8,976 nucleotides of DNA from a virus (IMGVR_UViG_2778261459_000009:1-8976); one strand, 5' to 3'. Positions 414 through 8,478 are shown, counted from the stretch's first letter. Made by a program: numbers and translations. Notes: generated by a model from the letters alone, not told the origin.

Positions 414-1770
<1,357 letters not shown>

Positions 1771-2122: not shown

Positions 2123-2446
2123 ATGGATGCACAAACACGCCGCCGCGAACGTCGCGCAGAGAAACAGGCTCAATGGAAAGCAGCAAATCCCCTGTTGGTT
2201 GGGGTAAGCGCAAAACCAGTTAACCGCCCTATTCTCTCGCTGAATCGCAAACCGAAATCACGAGTAGAAAGCGCACTGAATCCGATAGACCTTACGGTGC
2301 TGGCTGAATACCACGAACAGATTGAAAGCAACCTGCAACGTATTGAGCGCAAGAATCATCGAGTTTGGTATAGCAAGCCAAGTGAGTTCGGTATAACTTG
2401 TCAAGGAAGACAAAAGGTTAAAGGGAAATCCATTCCATTGGCATGA
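2123..2446 (+). CDS. N: Antitermination protein N (107 aa), lambda-type, with arginine-rich boxB-binding motif
   Basis: MDAQTRRRERRAEKQAQWKAANPLLVGVSAKPVNRPILSLNRKPKSRVESALNPIDLTVLAEYH... closely matches lambda N as I recall it. The track ORF start at 2045 is an upstream in-frame extension. Confidence 0.92.
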   Translation: MDAQTRRRERRAEKQAQWKAANPLLVGVSAKPVNRPILSLNRKPKSRVESALNPIDLTVLAEYHEQIESNLQRIERKNHRVWYSKPSEFGITCQGRQKVKGKSIPLA

Positions 2447-2454
2447 GGTACGTA

Positions 2455-3324
2455 ATGAAGAAAATTGATTACAAGTCCATACCAAAACCAATAGACTCAG
2501 CATCAGAGCGAAAAAAACACAAAAAAGAGGCTGAAAAATTAGCAAATTATATCAGTTTTATTAGAAACAATGCTCACGGCGATGGCGACAGGAAGTTGCT
2601 TTCAGATGCCCGGACCCAAGCGTTCAGTATACTTCGTAAGCAGATGCAATATCGTCTTCATCCTGGCTACATAATTGAAATTCGCCCGACTGAAAGACAA
2701 TTGTTCTTATTAAACTCTGTCTTTGACTTTGTAAACGTAGTTGGAGATCTTATCGACAGGTCTGTAGATAAGGCTCCTGATACAAATAGTTTTCTTCTAA
2801 CAAATAAAGAATACTTATATGGTAAATTTGGTATAAACGGATGGCAAAAATATGTACGATTCTTACGTGCATTCGTTGATGCGTATAAAAATTCCGACAT
2901 GATTTATACATATTTGCCTGGTGGTGATAATTGTACGCTTTCGGCAGACAATAGAATATTCATACCTATACTTGGTCTTGGGCTGATTAATGCAGTAAAT
3001 GAAAGAGATGTTATAATTGTTAAGCAGTGGCGAAAGCATGAGGGATATAGATATCTGCCATGCTTTGATATATTAAAAATACAGAATAAATTCTATGTAA
3101 AAATTAAATATAAAGAAGATGTTTTCTTCCTCAGAAAAAACAAAGATCTTTTACAAGAACTTTCTGGGACAATAGATGTCATCGTAGGTTCTAGGTTTAT
3201 AAAAGAACTGAAAGAAAGCAGGTCTTTCTCTCGTGTAGAGATAAGCGAGTCAGAGTTATGGGGTATATCAAATAATCCTGTAAACCACGCTCACCAACGA
3301 AATCCAAACAAAAAGTGGTCATAA
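2455..3324 (+). CDS. AT-rich cargo gene of unknown function (289 aa) immediately downstream of N, in the position of lambda sieB/ral; candidate superinfection-exclusion or defence protein
   Basis: A 293-codon ORF begins at 2443; the likely start is the ATG at 2455, with a GAGG ribosome-binding site at 2446-2449. The base composition is visibly lower in GC than the flanking N and cIII regions, with long runs of AAA/ATA codons. I see no transmembrane segment and no motif I can name. A hairpin terminator follows directly. Confidence 0.75.
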   Translation: MKKIDYKSIPKPIDSASERKKHKKEAEKLANYISFIRNNAHGDGDRKLLSDARTQAFSILRKQMQYRLHPGYIIEIRPTERQLFLLNSVFDFVNVVGDLIDRSVDKAPDTNSFLLTNKEYLYGKFGINGWQKYVRFLRAFVDAYKNSDMIYTYLPGGDNCTLSADNRIFIPILGLGLINAVNERDVIIVKQWRKHEGYRYLPCFDILKIQNKFYVKIKYKEDVFFLRKNKDLLQELSGTIDVIVGSRFIKELKESRSFSRVEISESELWGISNNPVNHAHQRNPNKKWS

Positions 3325-3349
3325 CCCGCTCAGGCGGGTTTCATTTTCA
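3323..3349 (+). terminator. Rho-independent terminator after the AT-rich gene
   Basis: Stem aacccgc (3323-3329) and gcgggtt (3334-3340) with loop tcag, followed by the T-rich run tcattttc. Confidence 0.6.
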
Positions 3350-3466
3350 CGCAAACAACAGAATAAACACTGCACTGTGTATTCATTCCAACGAGTGAAT
3401 ACACGGAGCAATGTCGCTCGTAACTAAACAGGAGCCGACTTGTTCTGATTATTGGAAATCTTCTTT

Positions 3467-3491
3467 GCCCTCCAGTGTGAGGGCCTTTTTA
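3467..3491 (+). terminator. Second terminator-like hairpin upstream of cIII (tL-like)
   Basis: Stem gccctc (3467-3472) and gagggc (3479-3484) with loop cagtgt, followed by cttttta. Confidence 0.5.
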
Positions 3492-3556
3492 TATGCATAC
3501 CAATAACGCTTCATTCGAGGCGTTTTCGTTATGCAATCAAATATAAGGAGTTACCC

Positions 3557-3691
3557 ATGATGCACTTTCAGCTCGCGGGTAGCGGCGTCATGTCCGCTTT
3601 CTACCCGCACGAATCTGAATTATCACGCCGAGTTAAACAATTAATCAGAGCAGCAAAGAAACAACTGGAGGCGTTATGCGCAATGAAATAG
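3557..3691 (+). CDS. cIII: CIII-like protein (44 aa), a putative FtsH-inhibiting lysogeny regulator
   Basis: MMHFQLAGSGVMSAFYPHESELSRRVKQLIRAAKKQLEALCAMK shares the AGxxVxxxPxESxLxRxxxxL pattern of the lambda CIII central amphipathic helix. An AAGGAG ribosome-binding site lies 6 nt upstream of the ATG at 3557. It is in the expected position downstream of N. The track ORF start at 3452 has no ribosome-binding site. Confidence 0.75.
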   Translation: MMHFQLAGSGVMSAFYPHESELSRRVKQLIRAAKKQLEALCAMK

Positions 3692-3828
3692 CAATCAATC
3701 ACCAGATGCTTCGTGCTGCACAGAACAAAGCAGTAATAGCCAGATTTATTGGTGATTCAAAAATGTGGCTTGAAGCAAATAAAGCGATGAAATCAGCTAT
3801 CAACCTTCCGTGGTATCGCAGGAAATGA
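3676..3828 (+). CDS. kil: Kil-like small protein (50 aa), a possible host cell-division inhibitor; not present in the supplied ORF track
   Basis: ATG at 3676 with a GGAGG ribosome-binding site 5 nt upstream, overlapping the cIII 3' end. The translation is MRNEIAINHQMLRAAQNKAVIARFIGDSKMWLEANKAMKSAINLPWYRRK. The FIGD-KM--EA core resembles my recollection of lambda Kil, and the gene follows cIII as kil does in lambda. Confidence 0.5.
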   Translation: MRNEIAINHQMLRAAQNKAVIARFIGDSKMWLEANKAMKSAINLPWYRRK

Positions 3829-3909
3829 GTTTTACAGACAACTGGTCAGACGAAGAATTCATTCGTCAGATGAACAAAATGCTCAATCAGCACAAAGAAC
3901 AGGAGAAAG

Positions 3910-4221
3910 ATGATGATTCTGACTCTGAATGATAAGCGTGAAATATCGCAAATAATCGCAAGTTTTACTGATGAAGATTACGAACGAATCAACAGTGAAG
4001 TTGATCGCCTCTGCAAACGTTGCGACCCAATAAGCGAAATGCTTCGCTCATATAAACCAGATGAACATACTAAGGATGCTATCGACTGGCTGGAAGATGA
4101 TGACTGTAACTATCAGGAAAAAGCCGCTGAATGGTTCTGGGATGCAATAACCGAAAGAGTTAAGGCTGAATATGCCTTCGCAATATTTAAACGCAGACAC
4201 ATTTTTGGAGAAGCTGCATGA
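3910..4221 (+). CDS. Acidic hypothetical protein (103 aa) with a CxxC pair, immediately upstream of recT
   Basis: An AGGAG ribosome-binding site lies 4-7 nt before the ATG at 3910/3913. The stop overlaps the recT start (ATGA at 4218-4221). The protein has about 24 Asp/Glu against about 15 Lys/Arg, and includes CKRC. Confidence 0.65.
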   Translation: MMILTLNDKREISQIIASFTDEDYERINSEVDRLCKRCDPISEMLRSYKPDEHTKDAIDWLEDDDCNYQEKAAEWFWDAITERVKAEYAFAIFKRRHIFGEAA

Positions 4222-5120
4222 GCAATATCGTTGAATTCGTTAAACAGCAAGAGCAGTTATTCTGCGGAGCATTGACTGAACAGACGGTGACATGGGCTAA
4301 GGAAAGCCAGTTTGCAATTCAGTATTTCCAGAAAAACGATTACCTGGCTAAAACAGCACTGGCAAATCCAACCAGCGCACAGAACGCCATCATCAATGTT
4401 GCGGCGATCGGCATCACCTTAAACCCGGCCAGCAAACTGGCTTATCTGGTTCCTCGCGACGGCATGGTGTGCCTTGATATCAGTTACATGGGATTACTTC
4501 ACCTTGCACAGTCGACAGGATCAATTAAGTGGGGGCAATGCAAACTGGTGTACTCAAACGACACCTATGAATCAAACGGCCTTGATTCAGCACCAACCCA
4601 CAAATACAACGCATTTGGTGAGCGAGGCTCTATTGTTGGTGGTTATTGTACGGTTAAAACAGCAGATGGTGACTACCTCACTGAAGAAATGAGTCTGGCA
4701 GAAATTAAAGCTGTGGAAGCAACGAGCAAGGCAAAGAATGGACCGTGGAAGACATTCTGGGAAGAGATGGCGCGTAAAACAATAGTTAAACGCGCCAGCA
4801 AATACTGGCCTAAAGCCCAGCGACTGGATAATGCCATTCACCTGCTTAACGAAGATGAAGGTATGCATCAGGAACCAGTTATGCCGCACAAATCAGAGGA
4901 AGATATCCGCGAAGATGAACGGAAACGCCAGCAGGAAATTATGGAAAAAGCACAACTTCTTTGTGATGAAATGGTTCAGGCAGAAAACATGGATGATTTG
5001 AAGCGATATTTTGCAGAAGCATATCGCCTGACATCTGGAATGAAATTGCAGCAGAACGTACAAGCCATTTACATAGAATGCAAAGCGAAACTGGAGGTTG
5101 CCAGTGAGCAAACTGTATGA
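4218..5120 (+). CDS. recT: RecT/Red-beta family single-strand annealing protein (300 aa)
   Basis: NGPWKTFWEEMARKTIVKRASKYWP closely parallels the NGPWVTHWEEMAKKTAIRRLFKYLP segment of E. coli Rac RecT as I recall it. The overall length and layout fit the RecT family. Confidence 0.85.
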   Translation: MSNIVEFVKQQEQLFCGALTEQTVTWAKESQFAIQYFQKNDYLAKTALANPTSAQNAIINVAAIGITLNPASKLAYLVPRDGMVCLDISYMGLLHLAQSTGSIKWGQCKLVYSNDTYESNGLDSAPTHKYNAFGERGSIVGGYCTVKTADGDYLTEEMSLAEIKAVEATSKAKNGPWKTFWEEMARKTIVKRASKYWPKAQRLDNAIHLLNEDEGMHQEPVMPHKSEEDIREDERKRQQEIMEKAQLLCDEMVQAENMDDLKRYFAEAYRLTSGMKLQQNVQAIYIECKAKLEVASEQTV

Positions 5121-5586
5121 AATTGCCAATGAATACGCAAAATTGATGGATTCAGATTTAGAACCAGAGATGATTGCTGACACAATAGAAGGCATGGAAG
5201 GAGAATTTACCGATAAAATAGAGCAACTTCTTTCCGTCATTAAAAATGAATCTGGTTATGCTGAACGCCTCAAGGAAGAGGCAAAGTCACTGAATGAGCG
5301 AGCCGCAGTAATTCAAAATAAGATTGACAGCATCAAATCATATATAGCGTCATCGCTTGAAATGGTTGGCAAGAAAAATATTCGAGCAGGTATTCACCAG
5401 GTAACAATCCGCAAACCGTCAGAAACTGTAGAAATCATCGACTCAAGCGCCCTTCCTCCTGAATACGTTGAGTTTGAAACGACAATTAAAGCCGACAAAC
5501 TGGCAATCAAACACCAACTAAAAGCAGGAATAAATATCCCCGGCGCTCAACTCAAAGTTGGGAAACCTTCACTTCTTATCAAATAA
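5104..5586 (+). CDS. Gam-like / Siphovirus Gp157-family protein (about 160 aa), a putative host-nuclease inhibitor partner of RecT
   Basis: Likely GTG start at 5104 with a GGAGG ribosome-binding site at 5093-5097; the track gives a TTG at 5098. It has a coiled-coil-like N-terminus and a C-terminal part that resembles Mu-Gam/Gp157-type proteins found next to annealing proteins. The family assignment is from memory and is tentative. Confidence 0.55.
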   Translation: MSKLYEIANEYAKLMDSDLEPEMIADTIEGMEGEFTDKIEQLLSVIKNESGYAERLKEEAKSLNERAAVIQNKIDSIKSYIASSLEMVGKKNIRAGIHQVTIRKPSETVEIIDSSALPPEYVEFETTIKADKLAIKHQLKAGINIPGAQLKVGKPSLLIK

Positions 5587-5597
5587 CGGTATCGCCT

Positions 5598-5912
5598 ATG
5601 AAAAAGACTCCATGGGAGAAATGGGAAGTCGATTTCTTGCGCGAAGTAGCGGCGACAATGCCAGTTGAAGTTATCGCTGAAAAACTGGAAAGGACTGAAA
5701 AAGCAGTAATGGCGAAAGCAACAAGGATTGGAGCTGACATTGTTAGCCGACTTCGTGGAAGACGCTGGACAAGAGCCGAAGTATCACTTTTCGGTAAGTT
5801 CTCCGCAGAAGAAATAGCAATTGCAACCTGCCGCTCAATTTATTCAGTAAGAGCTATGCGATACAAGCTAAAAAAACTCGATGAAGAAAGAGCAGGCATA
5901 CGAATAAATTAA
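5598..5912 (+). CDS. Hypothetical protein (104 aa) with two tandem roughly 35-aa helix-turn-helix-like repeats
   Basis: The internal repeat is [37 protein letters not shown] against [37 protein letters not shown], with a shared W..EV..L......EEIA..L.R(T/S)..AV.A pattern. Confidence 0.6.
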
Positions 5913-5928
5913 CAAAGAGGAATTTACC

Positions 5929-6093
5929 ATGAGAGGACTTGCATACAATCCCGGCATTCTTCCGGCAGAAATGATTATTCGCCAACGCGTAAAGCCAATG
6001 CCATCGAGAGAGGAATTGCTTAAGAGAAATTCTTTTCCGTCAGTGAATCAAAACAAATATCTGAATGCGATGTGGCGGAGTGGGAAGAAATGA
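5929..6093 (+). CDS. Small hypothetical protein (54 aa), not in the supplied track; translationally coupled to the next gene
   Basis: ATG at 5929 with an AAAGAGG ribosome-binding site 7 nt upstream. The stop TGA at 6091-6093 overlaps the ATG at 6090-6092 of the downstream gene (ATGA). Confidence 0.45.
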
Positions 6094-6524
6094 AACAAAT
6101 GTCACTAATTGAGATGGATGGATTTCTGAAAGGTAGATGCATCCCACGAGATTTAAAGGTTAACGAAACAAACGCTGAATATCTGGTGCGTAAATTTGCT
6201 GAAGCGGAGGCCAAGTGCGCGGCGCTGGCAGCGGAGAATGCGGCAATGCATGAAACTATTGAAGCCGTTCGGAGTGTTGCGGATAACTCCAGTGGAATTG
6301 CCGGATGGCATTTGAATGGCGATATCGCTACATGGGAAGAGATTCTTCCTGAAATTAACGATATCGAAACCACAGCCACCGACGCTTTCCTGGCTGAAGT
6401 ACGGGCGAAGGGCGTGGAGATGGCTATGGAGCATATGCAGTCGAGCGGTTCGTTTTCATTTGGAGATTGCTACATATCACTTAACGAGTTCGCCGCCCAG
6501 CTTCGCAAAGGAGACAACCAGTGA
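6090..6524 (+). CDS. Hypothetical protein (144 aa)
   Basis: [15 protein letters not shown]..., with an Ala/Glu-rich helical centre. The track start at 6072 is a GTG; the ATG at 6090 is the better start because of the coupling overlap. Confidence 0.65.
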
Positions 6525-7798: not shown

Positions 7799-7986
7799 GT
7801 ATGAGTGCATCACTTATAACCGCCTTCAATCAAAGTGCAAATCCAAGCAATGAGCAGGTTGTTGTGTTCGGCTGGATTGCTGAGTATTTCGAAAGCATTT
7901 TCGACGATGAATCCGCTAGGTATTGCAGGAATATTTCTGAATCACTCAAAAATCAGGTTTCTGCTCAACAGGTGGTGAAGTCGTGA
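7795..7986 (+). CDS. Hypothetical small protein (about 61-63 aa)
   Basis: The GTG at 7795 overlaps the upstream stop, with AGGAGG just upstream. An alternative ATG lies at 7801. Confidence 0.5.
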   Translation: MSMSASLITAFNQSANPSNEQVVVFGWIAEYFESIFDDESARYCRNISESLKNQVSAQQVVKS

Positions 7987-8201
7987 GCAAGCACATCATC
8001 AAATATGACTATCGAGAGGGAGTTAAACTCCCTAAGCACGAGATTGAGACATGGTGCGGTCATCGGCCAGGGTCATTCGAATGGCTTTTTCAGGATGCTC
8101 AGCATGCGCTATTGAGCATTGATCAGGGAACGCTGCTTGTTCCTTGCAAGAATTGTCTGGCAGCAATCATCAAAACGGCGCAGGAGGTTAACCGTGGCTA
8201 A
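7983..8201 (+). CDS. Hypothetical small protein (72 aa) with a C-x-H ... C-x2-C arrangement, a possible zinc-binding fold
   Basis: The GTG at 7983 overlaps the upstream stop (GTGA). The translation contains ETWCGHRPG and VPCKNCL. Confidence 0.55.
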   Translation: MSKHIIKYDYREGVKLPKHEIETWCGHRPGSFEWLFQDAQHALLSIDQGTLLVPCKNCLAAIIKTAQEVNRG

Positions 8202-8478
8202 CCTGCAACTTGCCGTCAACGGTGAATACTTCGATGCCATGATTAGCGGAGAGAAAACGGAAGAGTATCGCCTGTGTAATGACTACTGGAATAAGCGAAT
8301 TATGTTCCGTGAGTATGACCGCCTGATTATCACAAAGGGATATCCGAAGCGCGACGATTCCAGCCGCAGAATTGATGTTCCGTATGACGGATATGAAATC
8401 AAGACAATCACACATCCGCACTTCGGTGATAAACCGGTAAAGGTGTTCGCGATAAAGGTGAATATAGGCAATGAATAA
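8194..8478 (+). CDS. ASCH-like (DUF3850-type) domain protein (about 94 aa)
   Basis: GTG at 8194 with an AGGAGG ribosome-binding site 6 nt upstream. The N-terminus ANLQLAVNGEYFDAMISGEKTEEYRLCND parallels the ...EYF.A..SG.KT.E.R.ND pattern of phage ASCH/DUF3850 proteins. The track ORF start at 8119 is an upstream extension through the preceding gene. Confidence 0.6.
   Translation: MANLQLAVNGEYFDAMISGEKTEEYRLCNDYWNKRIMFREYDRLIITKGYPKRDDSSRRIDVPYDGYEIKTITHPHFGDKPVKVFAIKVNIGNE

What the first reader, a model, noticed from the sequence alone, without database searches (positions are those of the whole stretch)
4218..5586. RecT-family annealing protein paired with a Gam/Gp157-like protein but with no exonuclease gene in the operon
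Annealing proteins usually sit beside their cognate 5'-3' exonuclease (RecE or lambda Exo). Between kil and xis I see no ORF large enough or with exonuclease-like motifs. Instead, recT is preceded by an acidic 103-aa protein and followed by a Gam/Gp157-like protein. The module may rely on host nucleases, or one of the small flanking proteins may be an unrecognised partner.
Basis: inference. Interest (0 to 1): 0.4.

Follow-up and report, generated by a model that had tools for sequence, protein, structure and literature searches.

The report
Exonuclease-free RecT recombination module, already catalogued
This prophage carries a RecT DNA-annealing gene flanked by two small DNA-end or RecBCD-blocking proteins and no exonuclease, which is a common and already described layout in lambda-like phages, not an anomaly.

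Summary
RecT (4218-5120) and a Sipho_Gp157 protein (true start 5104, ends 5586) sit in the PL operon of an imm434 lambdoid prophage. No ORF from kil to xis matches a nuclease family in Pfam, PHROGs or NCBIfam (PADLOC was run on seven of them); a RecE-like nuclease in the same slot of phage SEN22 was detected readily.

The layout is not unusual. The same module occurs in plaque-forming phages (HK140, mEpX1, Kapi1, Gally) and in 266 of 5,426 complete E. coli genomes. Zheng et al. 2025 list HK140 as "SAP-4 + MuGam, no nuclease", and 84 of 246 lambdoid Rec modules lack a nuclease.

My additions are inferences:
- Gp157 is a remote Mu-Gam relative. It occupies the slot that Exo holds in related modules.
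- The last ~55 residues of RecT were present in 22/22 annealases followed by Gp157, one with an Erf core, and in 0/5 followed by Exo. This suggests a Gp157-docking tail.

The source of the single-stranded DNA remains unknown. Verdict: ordinary and already known.

The parts
3676..3828 (+). kil; left neighbour of the recombination module (context)
   Evidence: PF06301 Lambda_Kil E=1.7e-20 and phrog_2055 E=1.2e-35.
3825..3932 (+). 35-aa acidic ORF with an Arf-like N-terminus. The likely start is ATG 3825, which overlaps the kil stop (ATGA). Megablast matches to Erf/Abc2-type phages end in or near this ORF.
   Evidence: phrog_17766 E=7.6e-16 and phrog_2123 'recombinase' E=5.3e-10. Similarity to P22 Arf is weak (E=0.007 over 12 aa). 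Sequence read; pI 4.27. Left limit of the HK97/HK022 matches inferred, exact breakpoint not read.
3913..4221 (+). orf102 (phrog_3486): acidic, all-helical protein. It is a candidate divergent lambda-Gam-type RecBCD inhibitor and is translationally coupled to recT.
4218..4862 (+). RecT annealing core (aa 1-215)
   Evidence: PF03837 covers aa 31-214. This core is 54-82% identical to the RecT cores of TL-2011c, Vibrio 1.236.O, Aeromonas 51 and PY100, which are each followed by an exonuclease.
4950..5120 (+). RecT C-terminal tail (aa 245-300, with stop codon): predicted docking domain for Gp157
   Evidence: Present in 22/22 SSAPs followed by Gp157 and in 0/5 followed by Exo. It is 57% identical to the tail of the Erf-core SSAP of Pantoea phage PdC23.
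5104..5586 (+). Gp157 (Sipho_Gp157 / phrog_253): remote Mu-Gam relative and putative dsDNA-end-binding partner of RecT. It overlaps recT by 17 nt.
   Evidence: PF05565 E=1.1e-37. AF2 model shows a long helix plus a small beta domain. hhalign against Mu Gam gives E=4.9e-4 and is collinear; controls give E>=0.037. 29/108 family members hit PF07352, best 5.3e-6. No near-invariant Asp, Glu or His in the deep alignment.
5598..5912 (+). orf104: basic protein (pI 10.0) with two HTH-like repeats, related to phage Mu gp9, which sits next to gam in Mu
   Evidence: phrog_11492 E=4.6e-23 and phrog_323 E=2.8e-20. BLASTP against Mu gp9 gives E=5e-5 with an internal repeat. Mu gp9 belongs to phrog_323 and is adjacent to gam. 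Not similar to P22 Abc1.
5929..6093 (+). DUF2737 ORF; right neighbour of the module, where similarity to P22/HK97-type phages resumes
   Evidence: PF10930 E=2.6e-31. 75% identical to P22 orf56. Matches to HK97/HK022 cover only the two flanks of 3800-6100.

Best explanation
This is the recombination (Rec) module of a lambdoid prophage, of the known nuclease-free class. It is transcribed from PL under N antitermination as a tightly coupled block: arf-like ORF, orf102, recT, gp157, orf104.

Shown here:
- RecT is a bona fide RecT-family annealase.
- No nuclease is encoded between kil and xis.
- The block is conserved across Enterobacterales and in viable phages.

Inferred:
1. orf102 is a divergent lambda-Gam-like protein that blocks host RecBCD.
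2. Gp157 is a Mu-Gam/Ku-like protein that binds double-strand ends. It occupies the place that Exo holds in Red-type modules.
3. The last ~55 residues of RecT are a docking tail for Gp157, by analogy with the Red-beta C-terminal domain that binds lambda Exo. Gp157 would then bring RecT to protected ends.
4. The single-stranded DNA that RecT anneals comes from host functions (for example RecJ/RecQ-type resection) or from replication intermediates, not from a phage exonuclease.

The module would support circularisation, concatemer formation and repair of phage DNA while keeping RecBCD off the ends.
For: - Family assignments.
- No nuclease hit in Pfam, PHROGs or NCBIfam for any ORF, nor in PADLOC for those scanned, with a positive control in SEN22.
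- Same module in plaque-forming phages and in 266 of 5,426 complete E. coli genomes. The part of HK140 inspected (18.0-40.7 kb, which holds all its non-structural genes) has no 5'-3' exonuclease annotated.
- Literature: HK140 listed as SAP-4 + MuGam with no nuclease, and 84/246 modules without a nuclease (PMC12315714). In Firmicutes, sipho_gp157 and Mu gam are interchangeable next to erf and sak4 (PMC8093625).
- Gp157 to Mu Gam link.
- orf102 to Gam link.
- Tail/partner co-variation, 22/22 against 0/5, including an Erf-core SSAP.
- The Red-beta CTD binds Exo and SSB (PMC11611040).
- Gene overlaps and ribosome-binding sites read directly.
Against: - No biochemical data exist for any of these proteins.
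- The window's Gp157 does not itself hit PF07352.
- The tail/Gp157 association could partly reflect physical linkage of adjacent DNA rather than a protein contact. The tail could instead bind host SSB.
- If both Gam-like proteins block end processing, the source of the ssDNA is unexplained.
- The search for exonucleases in related loci used only three query proteins with phmmer.
Confidence: 0.75

Rival explanations
1. Degenerate module: an exonuclease gene that once followed recT was deleted, leaving a crippled remnant in a decaying prophage.
For: Prophage early regions do decay. Pseudogenes occur in the related G749 prophage, and an IS3 insertion replaces recT in Pseudenterobacter (L025).
Against: All five ORFs here are intact and translationally coupled. 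The identical architecture is found in plaque-forming phages HK140, mEpX1, Kapi1, Gally, Louie and Dewey and in about 30 loci from some 20 species. The annealase tail is specific to Gp157-type modules rather than a truncated Exo-type tail.
Confidence: 0.03
2. Cryptic nuclease: one of the small proteins (orf102, Gp157, orf104 or another PL ORF) is an unrecognised exonuclease that partners RecT.
For: Gp157 sits exactly where Exo sits in related modules, and the annealase tail co-varies with it. Several downstream ORFs have no known function.
Against: orf102 is all-helical. Gp157 is a long helix plus a small beta domain, with no near-invariant Asp, Glu or His among 108 diverse members. orf104 is a basic HTH-repeat protein. 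There are no nuclease profile hits in any library searched, while a real nuclease in this slot was detected easily.
Confidence: 0.05
3. P22-style hijack: the module does not block RecBCD but reprograms it, as P22 Abc2 does. Host RecBCD would then be the resecting enzyme that feeds RecT, and orf102 and/or Gp157 would be modulators rather than inhibitors.
For: P22 Erf works with Abc2-modified RecBCD, and Zheng et al. place anti-RecBCD + SAP modules in the P22 functional class. A P22 Abc1 homologue follows Gp157 in two Enterobacter loci. This would explain where the ssDNA comes from.
Against: No Abc2 homologue is present. The orf102 slot alternates with lambda Gam and GamL, which block RecBCD outright. 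Mu Gam-type proteins block end access.
Confidence: 0.12
4. Gp157 is not an end-binding Gam analogue. It is a different kind of annealase accessory factor, such as a mediator or loader acting on SSB-coated ssDNA, or a replication or anti-defence protein. The Mu Gam similarity would then be coiled-coil noise.
For: Structure searches returned only coiled-coil matches. The Pfam family was originally named for a phage-resistance phenotype. In Firmicutes its slot is also filled by DUF1351 and DUF2483, both of unknown function.
Against: The hhalign match lies in the non-coiled C-terminal half and is collinear. It beats reversed and shuffled controls. 29/108 members hit PF07352, down to 5e-6. PHROGs and Zheng et al. 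reach the same assignment independently. A homologue of Mu gp9, the neighbour of gam in Mu, sits next to it.
Confidence: 0.15

Closest known systems
HK140-type Rec module of lambdoid phages (SAP type 4 + MuGam, no nuclease, no SSB; Zheng, Casjens, Davidson, Amundsen & Smith, Genome Res 2025)
   Same: It has the same genes in the same order (102-aa ORF, RecT, Gp157, 104-aa ORF, DUF2737). DNA identity across 3800-6100 is about 93% to HK140, mEpX1, Kapi1 and Gally, and about 98% to EC.P3 and E212 over the 77-86% of that stretch they cover. The EC.P3 RecT is 99% identical in protein.
   Different: Nothing of substance differs. Here the module sits in an imm434 background. The published description does not count the 102-aa ORF as a module member. 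I propose that it is a Gam-type inhibitor.
Phage HK639 / Klebsiella phage KO-TP1 module (GamL + RecT + MuGam)
   Same: The RecT has the same C-terminal tail and is followed by Gp157. A ~95-aa gene lies immediately upstream of recT.
   Different: The upstream gene is GamL rather than a phrog_3486 protein. The two are not alignable by BLASTP and only weakly by hhalign.
Lambda Red (gam-bet-exo) and the TL-2011c / phi80-type modules (GamL-RecT-Exo-SSB)
   Same: The position after kil in the PL operon is the same, and so is the order: small anti-RecBCD gene, then annealase, then partner gene. The RecT core of TL-2011c is 72% identical over aa 1-215.
   Different: The partner after the annealase is a 5'-3' exonuclease there and Gp157 here. 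The annealase C-terminal tails are unrelated.
P22 arf-erf-abc1-abc2
   Same: It is a nuclease-free annealase module flanked by kil and orf56/DUF2737, with small accessory genes on both sides.
   Different: The annealase is Erf, not RecT. The RecBCD modifier is Abc2, which is absent here. orf104 is not Abc1.
Firmicutes phage modules with sipho_gp157 or Mu gam next to erf-ssb or sak4 (PMC8093625)
   Same: A Gp157-family gene is adjacent to an annealase, without an exonuclease.
   Different: Gp157 lies upstream of the annealase there, usually with an SSB gene. The annealase families differ.

Membership tests
RecT family (Pfam PF03837 / TIGR00616) | Profile match above the curated cut-off across the annealing core | tested here: met
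   PF03837 scores 115.7 bits against a cut-off of 24, covering aa 31-214. TIGR00616 scores 76.7 against 52.65. Listeria RecT 7UB2 matches at E=6.8e-5.
RecT family (Pfam PF03837 / TIGR00616) | Orthology with Rac prophage RecT (NCBIfam equivalog NF007351) | tested here: not met
   90.8 bits against a cut-off of 296. It is a RecT-family member but not the Rac RecT orthologue.
RecT family (Pfam PF03837 / TIGR00616) | ssDNA annealing activity | not testable with these tools
   Requires biochemistry or a recombineering assay.
Two-component exonuclease-annealase recombinase (lambda Red, RecET) | A 5'-3' dsDNA exonuclease (YqaJ/lambda Exo or RecE PD-(D/E)xK) encoded next to the annealase | tested here: not met
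   No nuclease family hit for any ORF between kil and xis in Pfam, PHROGs or NCBIfam, nor in PADLOC for those scanned. No lambda Exo, TL-2011c Exo or RecE homologue in about 30 related loci. Positive control: SEN22 DUF3799 at E=3e-27.
Nuclease-free Rec module class (anti-RecBCD + SAP, P22 functional type of Zheng et al. 2025) | Annealase present; anti-RecBCD-type gene present; no nuclease; no SSB | tested here: met
   RecT is present. Gp157 is phrog_253, the gene classed as MuGam in HK140. There is no nuclease and no SSB family hit in the window. Anti-RecBCD activity itself is inferred, not shown.
Sipho_Gp157 (PF05565) | Full-length profile match above the cut-off | tested here: met
   130 bits against a cut-off of 28.6, covering aa 3-160 of 160 and profile positions 1-162 of 162. 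The family has 12,816 clusters at 50% identity.
Mu Gam / Ku-like end-binding proteins (PF07352) | Sequence-profile membership | tested here: inconclusive
   The window protein has no PF07352 hit at E<=1. However, 29/108 diverse Gp157 members do, with a best E of 5.3e-6. hhalign between the families gives E=4.9e-4, collinear (82-153 against 81-159), while controls give E>=0.037.
Mu Gam / Ku-like end-binding proteins (PF07352) | Ku-like fold and dimeric dsDNA-end binding | tested here: inconclusive
Lambda Gam family (for orf102) | Sequence-profile membership (Pfam Gam) | tested here: not met
   orf102 has no Pfam family at E<=0.1, and BLASTP against GamL finds nothing. hhalign against Gam+GamL gives E=6.8e-5 over 71 collinear columns, with controls at E>=0.019. 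This indicates remote similarity only.
Lambda Gam family (for orf102) | GamS-like helical fold | tested here: inconclusive
Lambda Gam family (for orf102) | Genomic slot immediately upstream of the annealase; inhibition of RecBCD | tested here: inconclusive
   The slot criterion is met. In RecT-Gp157 loci this position holds orf102, a 98-aa lambda-type Gam (4 loci) or GamL (7 loci). RecBCD inhibition cannot be tested here.

The most novel reading that the evidence does not exclude
Gp157 may be a dedicated, non-nucleolytic partner that replaces the exonuclease in a two-component recombinase. In this reading, a Ku/Mu-Gam-like end binder is recognised by a portable C-terminal tail that can be grafted onto RecT, Erf or other annealase cores. 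It loads the annealase at protected DNA ends. A previously unrecognised third lineage of lambda-Gam-like inhibitors (phrog_3486) would shut off RecBCD at the same time. Gp157-type modules would then be a distinct mechanistic class of phage recombination system, spread over more than 12,000 protein clusters, rather than an annealase plus an unrelated anti-nuclease.
Probability: 0.35. Interest if true: 0.5.

Novelty: already known. Interest (0 to 1): 0.2.

Why it matters
As posed, the finding matters little. A RecT without a phage exonuclease is a catalogued and frequent layout in lambdoid phages.

Two by-products may be useful:
- The tail/partner co-variation gives a concrete, testable prediction of a RecT-Gp157 complex. 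It also gives a rule for picking matched annealase-partner pairs when mining recombineering systems.
- If the phrog_3486 proteins are Gam-type RecBCD inhibitors, some modules now scored as lacking an anti-RecBCD function (for example SEN22) would need re-annotation. These proteins would also become candidates for triggering or evading defences that sense RecBCD inhibition or end-binding proteins, such as Gabija (PMC12407980).

Tried and rejected
- The label 'Abc1' given to the 104-aa ORF in phage Gally was checked and rejected. There is no BLASTP similarity to P22 Abc1. A true Abc1 homologue does fill that slot in two Enterobacter loci.
- orf102 was compared with P22 Abc2 and with GamL by BLASTP. 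Nothing was found.
- The 35-aa ORF against P22 Arf gave only a 12-residue match.
- No Chi site is present in the window, but only 0.2 are expected by chance, so this is uninformative.
- The promoter and terminator scan of 3300-6200 found no more promoter-like sites than expected by chance and no terminator-like site on the + strand downstream of 3525.
- The supplementary tables of Zheng et al. are not held, so I could not check how they scored the 102-aa ORF.
- PADLOC found no defence-system hit for any ORF scanned.

Full report
**What the window is.** The 8,976 bases are the immunity region and early-left (PL) operon of a lambdoid or P22-like E. coli prophage with phage 434 immunity. The gene order is as follows:
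- cII (1-354, - strand) and cro (414-668, - strand)
- a LexA-type cI (737-1369)
- N (2045-2446)
- a low-GC 293-aa ORF (2443-3324)
- cIII (3452-3691) and kil (3676-3828)
- the block under study (3825-5912)
- DUF2737 (5929-6093), Ead/Ea22, DUF551, an ASCH protein, and a TorI-type excisionase (8776 onward)

**Checking the observation.**
- RecT (4218-5120) matches PF03837 at E=2.6e-33, phrog_148 at E=2e-91, TIGR00616 above its cut-off, and the Listeria RecT structure 7UB2.
- The next gene is a full-length Sipho_Gp157 protein: PF05565 at E=1.1e-37 and phrog_253 'Mu Gam-like end protection'.
- Its real start is GTG 5104, behind GGAGG. This gives 160 aa like every full-length homologue, and it overlaps recT by 17 nt.
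- The ORF in front of recT (3913-4221) is acidic (pI 4.65), and its stop overlaps the recT start.
- None of the + strand ORFs from kil to xis hits a nuclease family in Pfam, PHROGs or NCBIfam; PADLOC, run on seven of them plus two upstream ORFs, found no defence-system hit.
- The method does see nucleases in this slot. In phage SEN22, between homologues of the same flanking ORFs, a RecE-like protein gives DUF3799 PD-(D/E)xK at E=3e-27.

**Is it unusual? No.**
- The 3800-6100 stretch is 92-94% identical to plaque-forming phages Kapi1, 683R2, Gally, mEpX1, HK140 and Louie. It is about 98% identical to EC.P3 and E212 over the 77-86% of it that they cover, and the EC.P3 RecT is 99% identical in protein.
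- The four-gene core is present at 80% coverage or more in 266 of 5,426 complete E. coli genomes.
- The part of HK140 that I inspected (18.0-40.7 kb, which holds all its non-structural genes) has no 5'-3' exonuclease annotated. It has NinB/Orf and RusA.
[quoted passage not shown] - The same paper reports that 84 of the 246 modules lack a nuclease, and that the 'anti-RecBCD + SAP only' class has 46 members with P22 as prototype.
- For Firmicutes phages, PMC8093625 reports sipho_gp157 and Mu gam as interchangeable neighbours of erf-ssb and sak4.

The architecture is therefore already described.

**What Gp157 is.**
- The family is very large: 12,816 clusters at 50% identity with E<=0.001.
- An AF2 model (pLDDT 79) shows a short helix, a 68-residue helix, and a small, less confident beta domain.
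- At sequence level, a deep Gp157 alignment aligns collinearly with Mu Gam in the C-terminal half: 82-153 against 81-159, hhalign E=4.9e-4. A reversed and 40 column-shuffled controls gave E>=0.037.
- 29 of 108 diverse family members individually hit Pfam Phage_Mu_Gam, with a best E of 5.3e-6. The window protein itself does not.
- No Asp, Glu or His is near-invariant in the deep alignment, which argues against a metal-dependent nuclease.
- The 104-aa basic ORF after Gp157 belongs to the same PHROG as Mu gp9, the gene adjacent to gam in Mu.

I conclude that Gp157 is a remote relative of Mu Gam. This conclusion has moderate support.

**Gp157 sits in the Exo slot, and the annealase tail tracks it.**
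- RecT cores 54-82% identical to this one over aa 1-215 occur in TL-2011c, Vibrio phage 1.236.O, Aeromonas phage 51 and Yersinia phage PY100. In all four the next gene is an exonuclease, in PY100 after an HNH insertion.
- Those proteins lack the last ~55 residues found here.
- That tail is 57% identical to the tail of an Erf-core annealase in Pantoea phage PdC23. The PdC23 gene is also followed by Gp157 (63% identical) and preceded by a phrog_3486 member.
- Across phages and 20 species-representative genomes, 22 of 22 annealases followed by Gp157 carry the tail (E<=5e-11). None of 5 followed by Exo does.
- The Red-beta C-terminal domain is known to bind lambda Exo and host SSB (PMC11611040).

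By analogy I infer that this tail docks Gp157. Linkage of adjacent DNA, or binding to host SSB, remain alternative readings.

**What the acidic 102-aa protein is.**
- It belongs to phrog_3486 (unknown function). It is conserved directly upstream of the annealase in E. coli, Serratia, Enterobacter and Pantoea.
- In other RecT-Gp157 loci the same slot holds a 98-aa lambda-type Gam (4 loci) or GamL (7 loci). This led me to predict a Gam-like role.
- The AF2 model is all-helical.
- hhalign of 13 family members against Gam+GamL gives E=6.8e-5 over 71 collinear columns, with controls at E>=0.019.
- It is not a Pfam Gam member.

I rate it a probable divergent Gam-type RecBCD inhibitor, at roughly 0.65. 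It is not a nuclease.

**Mechanism and what remains open.** The best reading is a nuclease-free Rec module with four parts:
- a Gam-like inhibitor (orf102);
- the RecT annealase;
- a Mu-Gam-like end binder (Gp157) that docks the annealase tail;
- a small Mu gp9-like DNA-binding protein (orf104).

The origin of the single-stranded DNA is not shown by anything here. Host resection (RecJ/RecQ type), replication intermediates, or a P22-style use of RecBCD are the candidates.

Rivals considered:
- A decayed module is contradicted by viable phages and by conservation.
- A cryptic nuclease is contradicted by folds, conservation patterns and profile searches.
- A RecBCD hijack is possible but there is no Abc2.
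- Gp157 could be a non-Gam accessory factor; this is not excluded.

**Verdict.** The feature is ordinary and already catalogued. The tail/partner rule and the Gam-like reading of phrog_3486 are modest new hypotheses worth a bench test.

Noticed in passing
window 2443-3324 (+): A 293-aa basic ORF (phrog_12139, unknown function) lies between N and cIII in a low-GC stretch (0.33-0.41). Its last 27 residues match the RNA-polymerase-arresting C-terminus of HK022 Nun (PDB 6alg_N residues 83-109, E=0.001; phrog_5632). It has no Pfam, NCBIfam or PADLOC hit. Phage 434 records annotate it as 'Nun C-terminal peptide-containing protein'.
   Followed up: partly
L032 1495-2841 (Izhakiella australiensis contig): A 448-aa protein directly upstream of Gp157 carries the same C-terminal tail (aa 397-448, E=2e-14). 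It has only a 40-residue piece of the RecT core and no Pfam family. It may be a third annealase type or a fusion bearing the Gp157-specific tail.
   Followed up: partly
L011 5482-6325 (phage Mu) and window 5104-5912: Mu gp9 (phrog_323, 'D5-like regulator') sits immediately upstream of Mu gam. Its homologue here (orf104) sits immediately downstream of Gp157. A gp9-like/Gam-like gene pair therefore recurs in unrelated phages, and its function is unknown.
   Followed up: partly
L008 6487-6780 and L028 5487-5795 (Enterobacter prophages); L001 5783-6097 (phage Gally): In two Enterobacter loci the slot after Gp157 holds a true P22 Abc1 homologue (E about 1e-26 to 1e-28) instead of the orf104 type. 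Phage Gally labels its orf104-type gene 'Abc1', which sequence comparison does not support.
   Followed up: yes
L038 1586-3598 (Salmonella phage SEN22): Homologues of orf102 and orf104 (~89% identical in DNA over the matching flanks) flank a different core: a RecE-like DUF3799 nuclease plus a 189-aa ORF, with no annealase. The flanking genes thus travel with more than one kind of recombination core. If orf102 is Gam-like, SEN22 is not 'anti-RecBCD-less' as currently classified.
   Followed up: partly
L009 3647-4111 (PdC23), L041 3413-3901 (PY100), phage Louie: HNH endonuclease genes are inserted exactly between the annealase gene and its partner gene (Gp157 or Exo) in several phages. This suggests a recurrent homing site at that junction.
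   Followed up: no
L025 3738-4942 (Pseudenterobacter timonensis): An IS3-family transposase pair lies where recT should be, upstream of an extended Gp157 ORF. This is a decayed copy of the module.
   Followed up: yes
window 1294-1770 (+): A 158-aa ORF just downstream of cI (phrog_2651, unknown function) has an internal start followed by a signal-peptide or lipobox-like stretch ([20 protein letters not shown]). It is probably a secreted or lipoprotein moron expressed from the prophage, in the position where lambda has rexAB.
   Followed up: no
window 7983-8478 (+): A DUF4752-type ORF (7983-8201) overlaps the listed start of an ASCH-domain ORF (8119-8478). RefSeq annotation of a related prophage starts the ASCH gene later. 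Neither ORF matches a nuclease family here.
   Followed up: no
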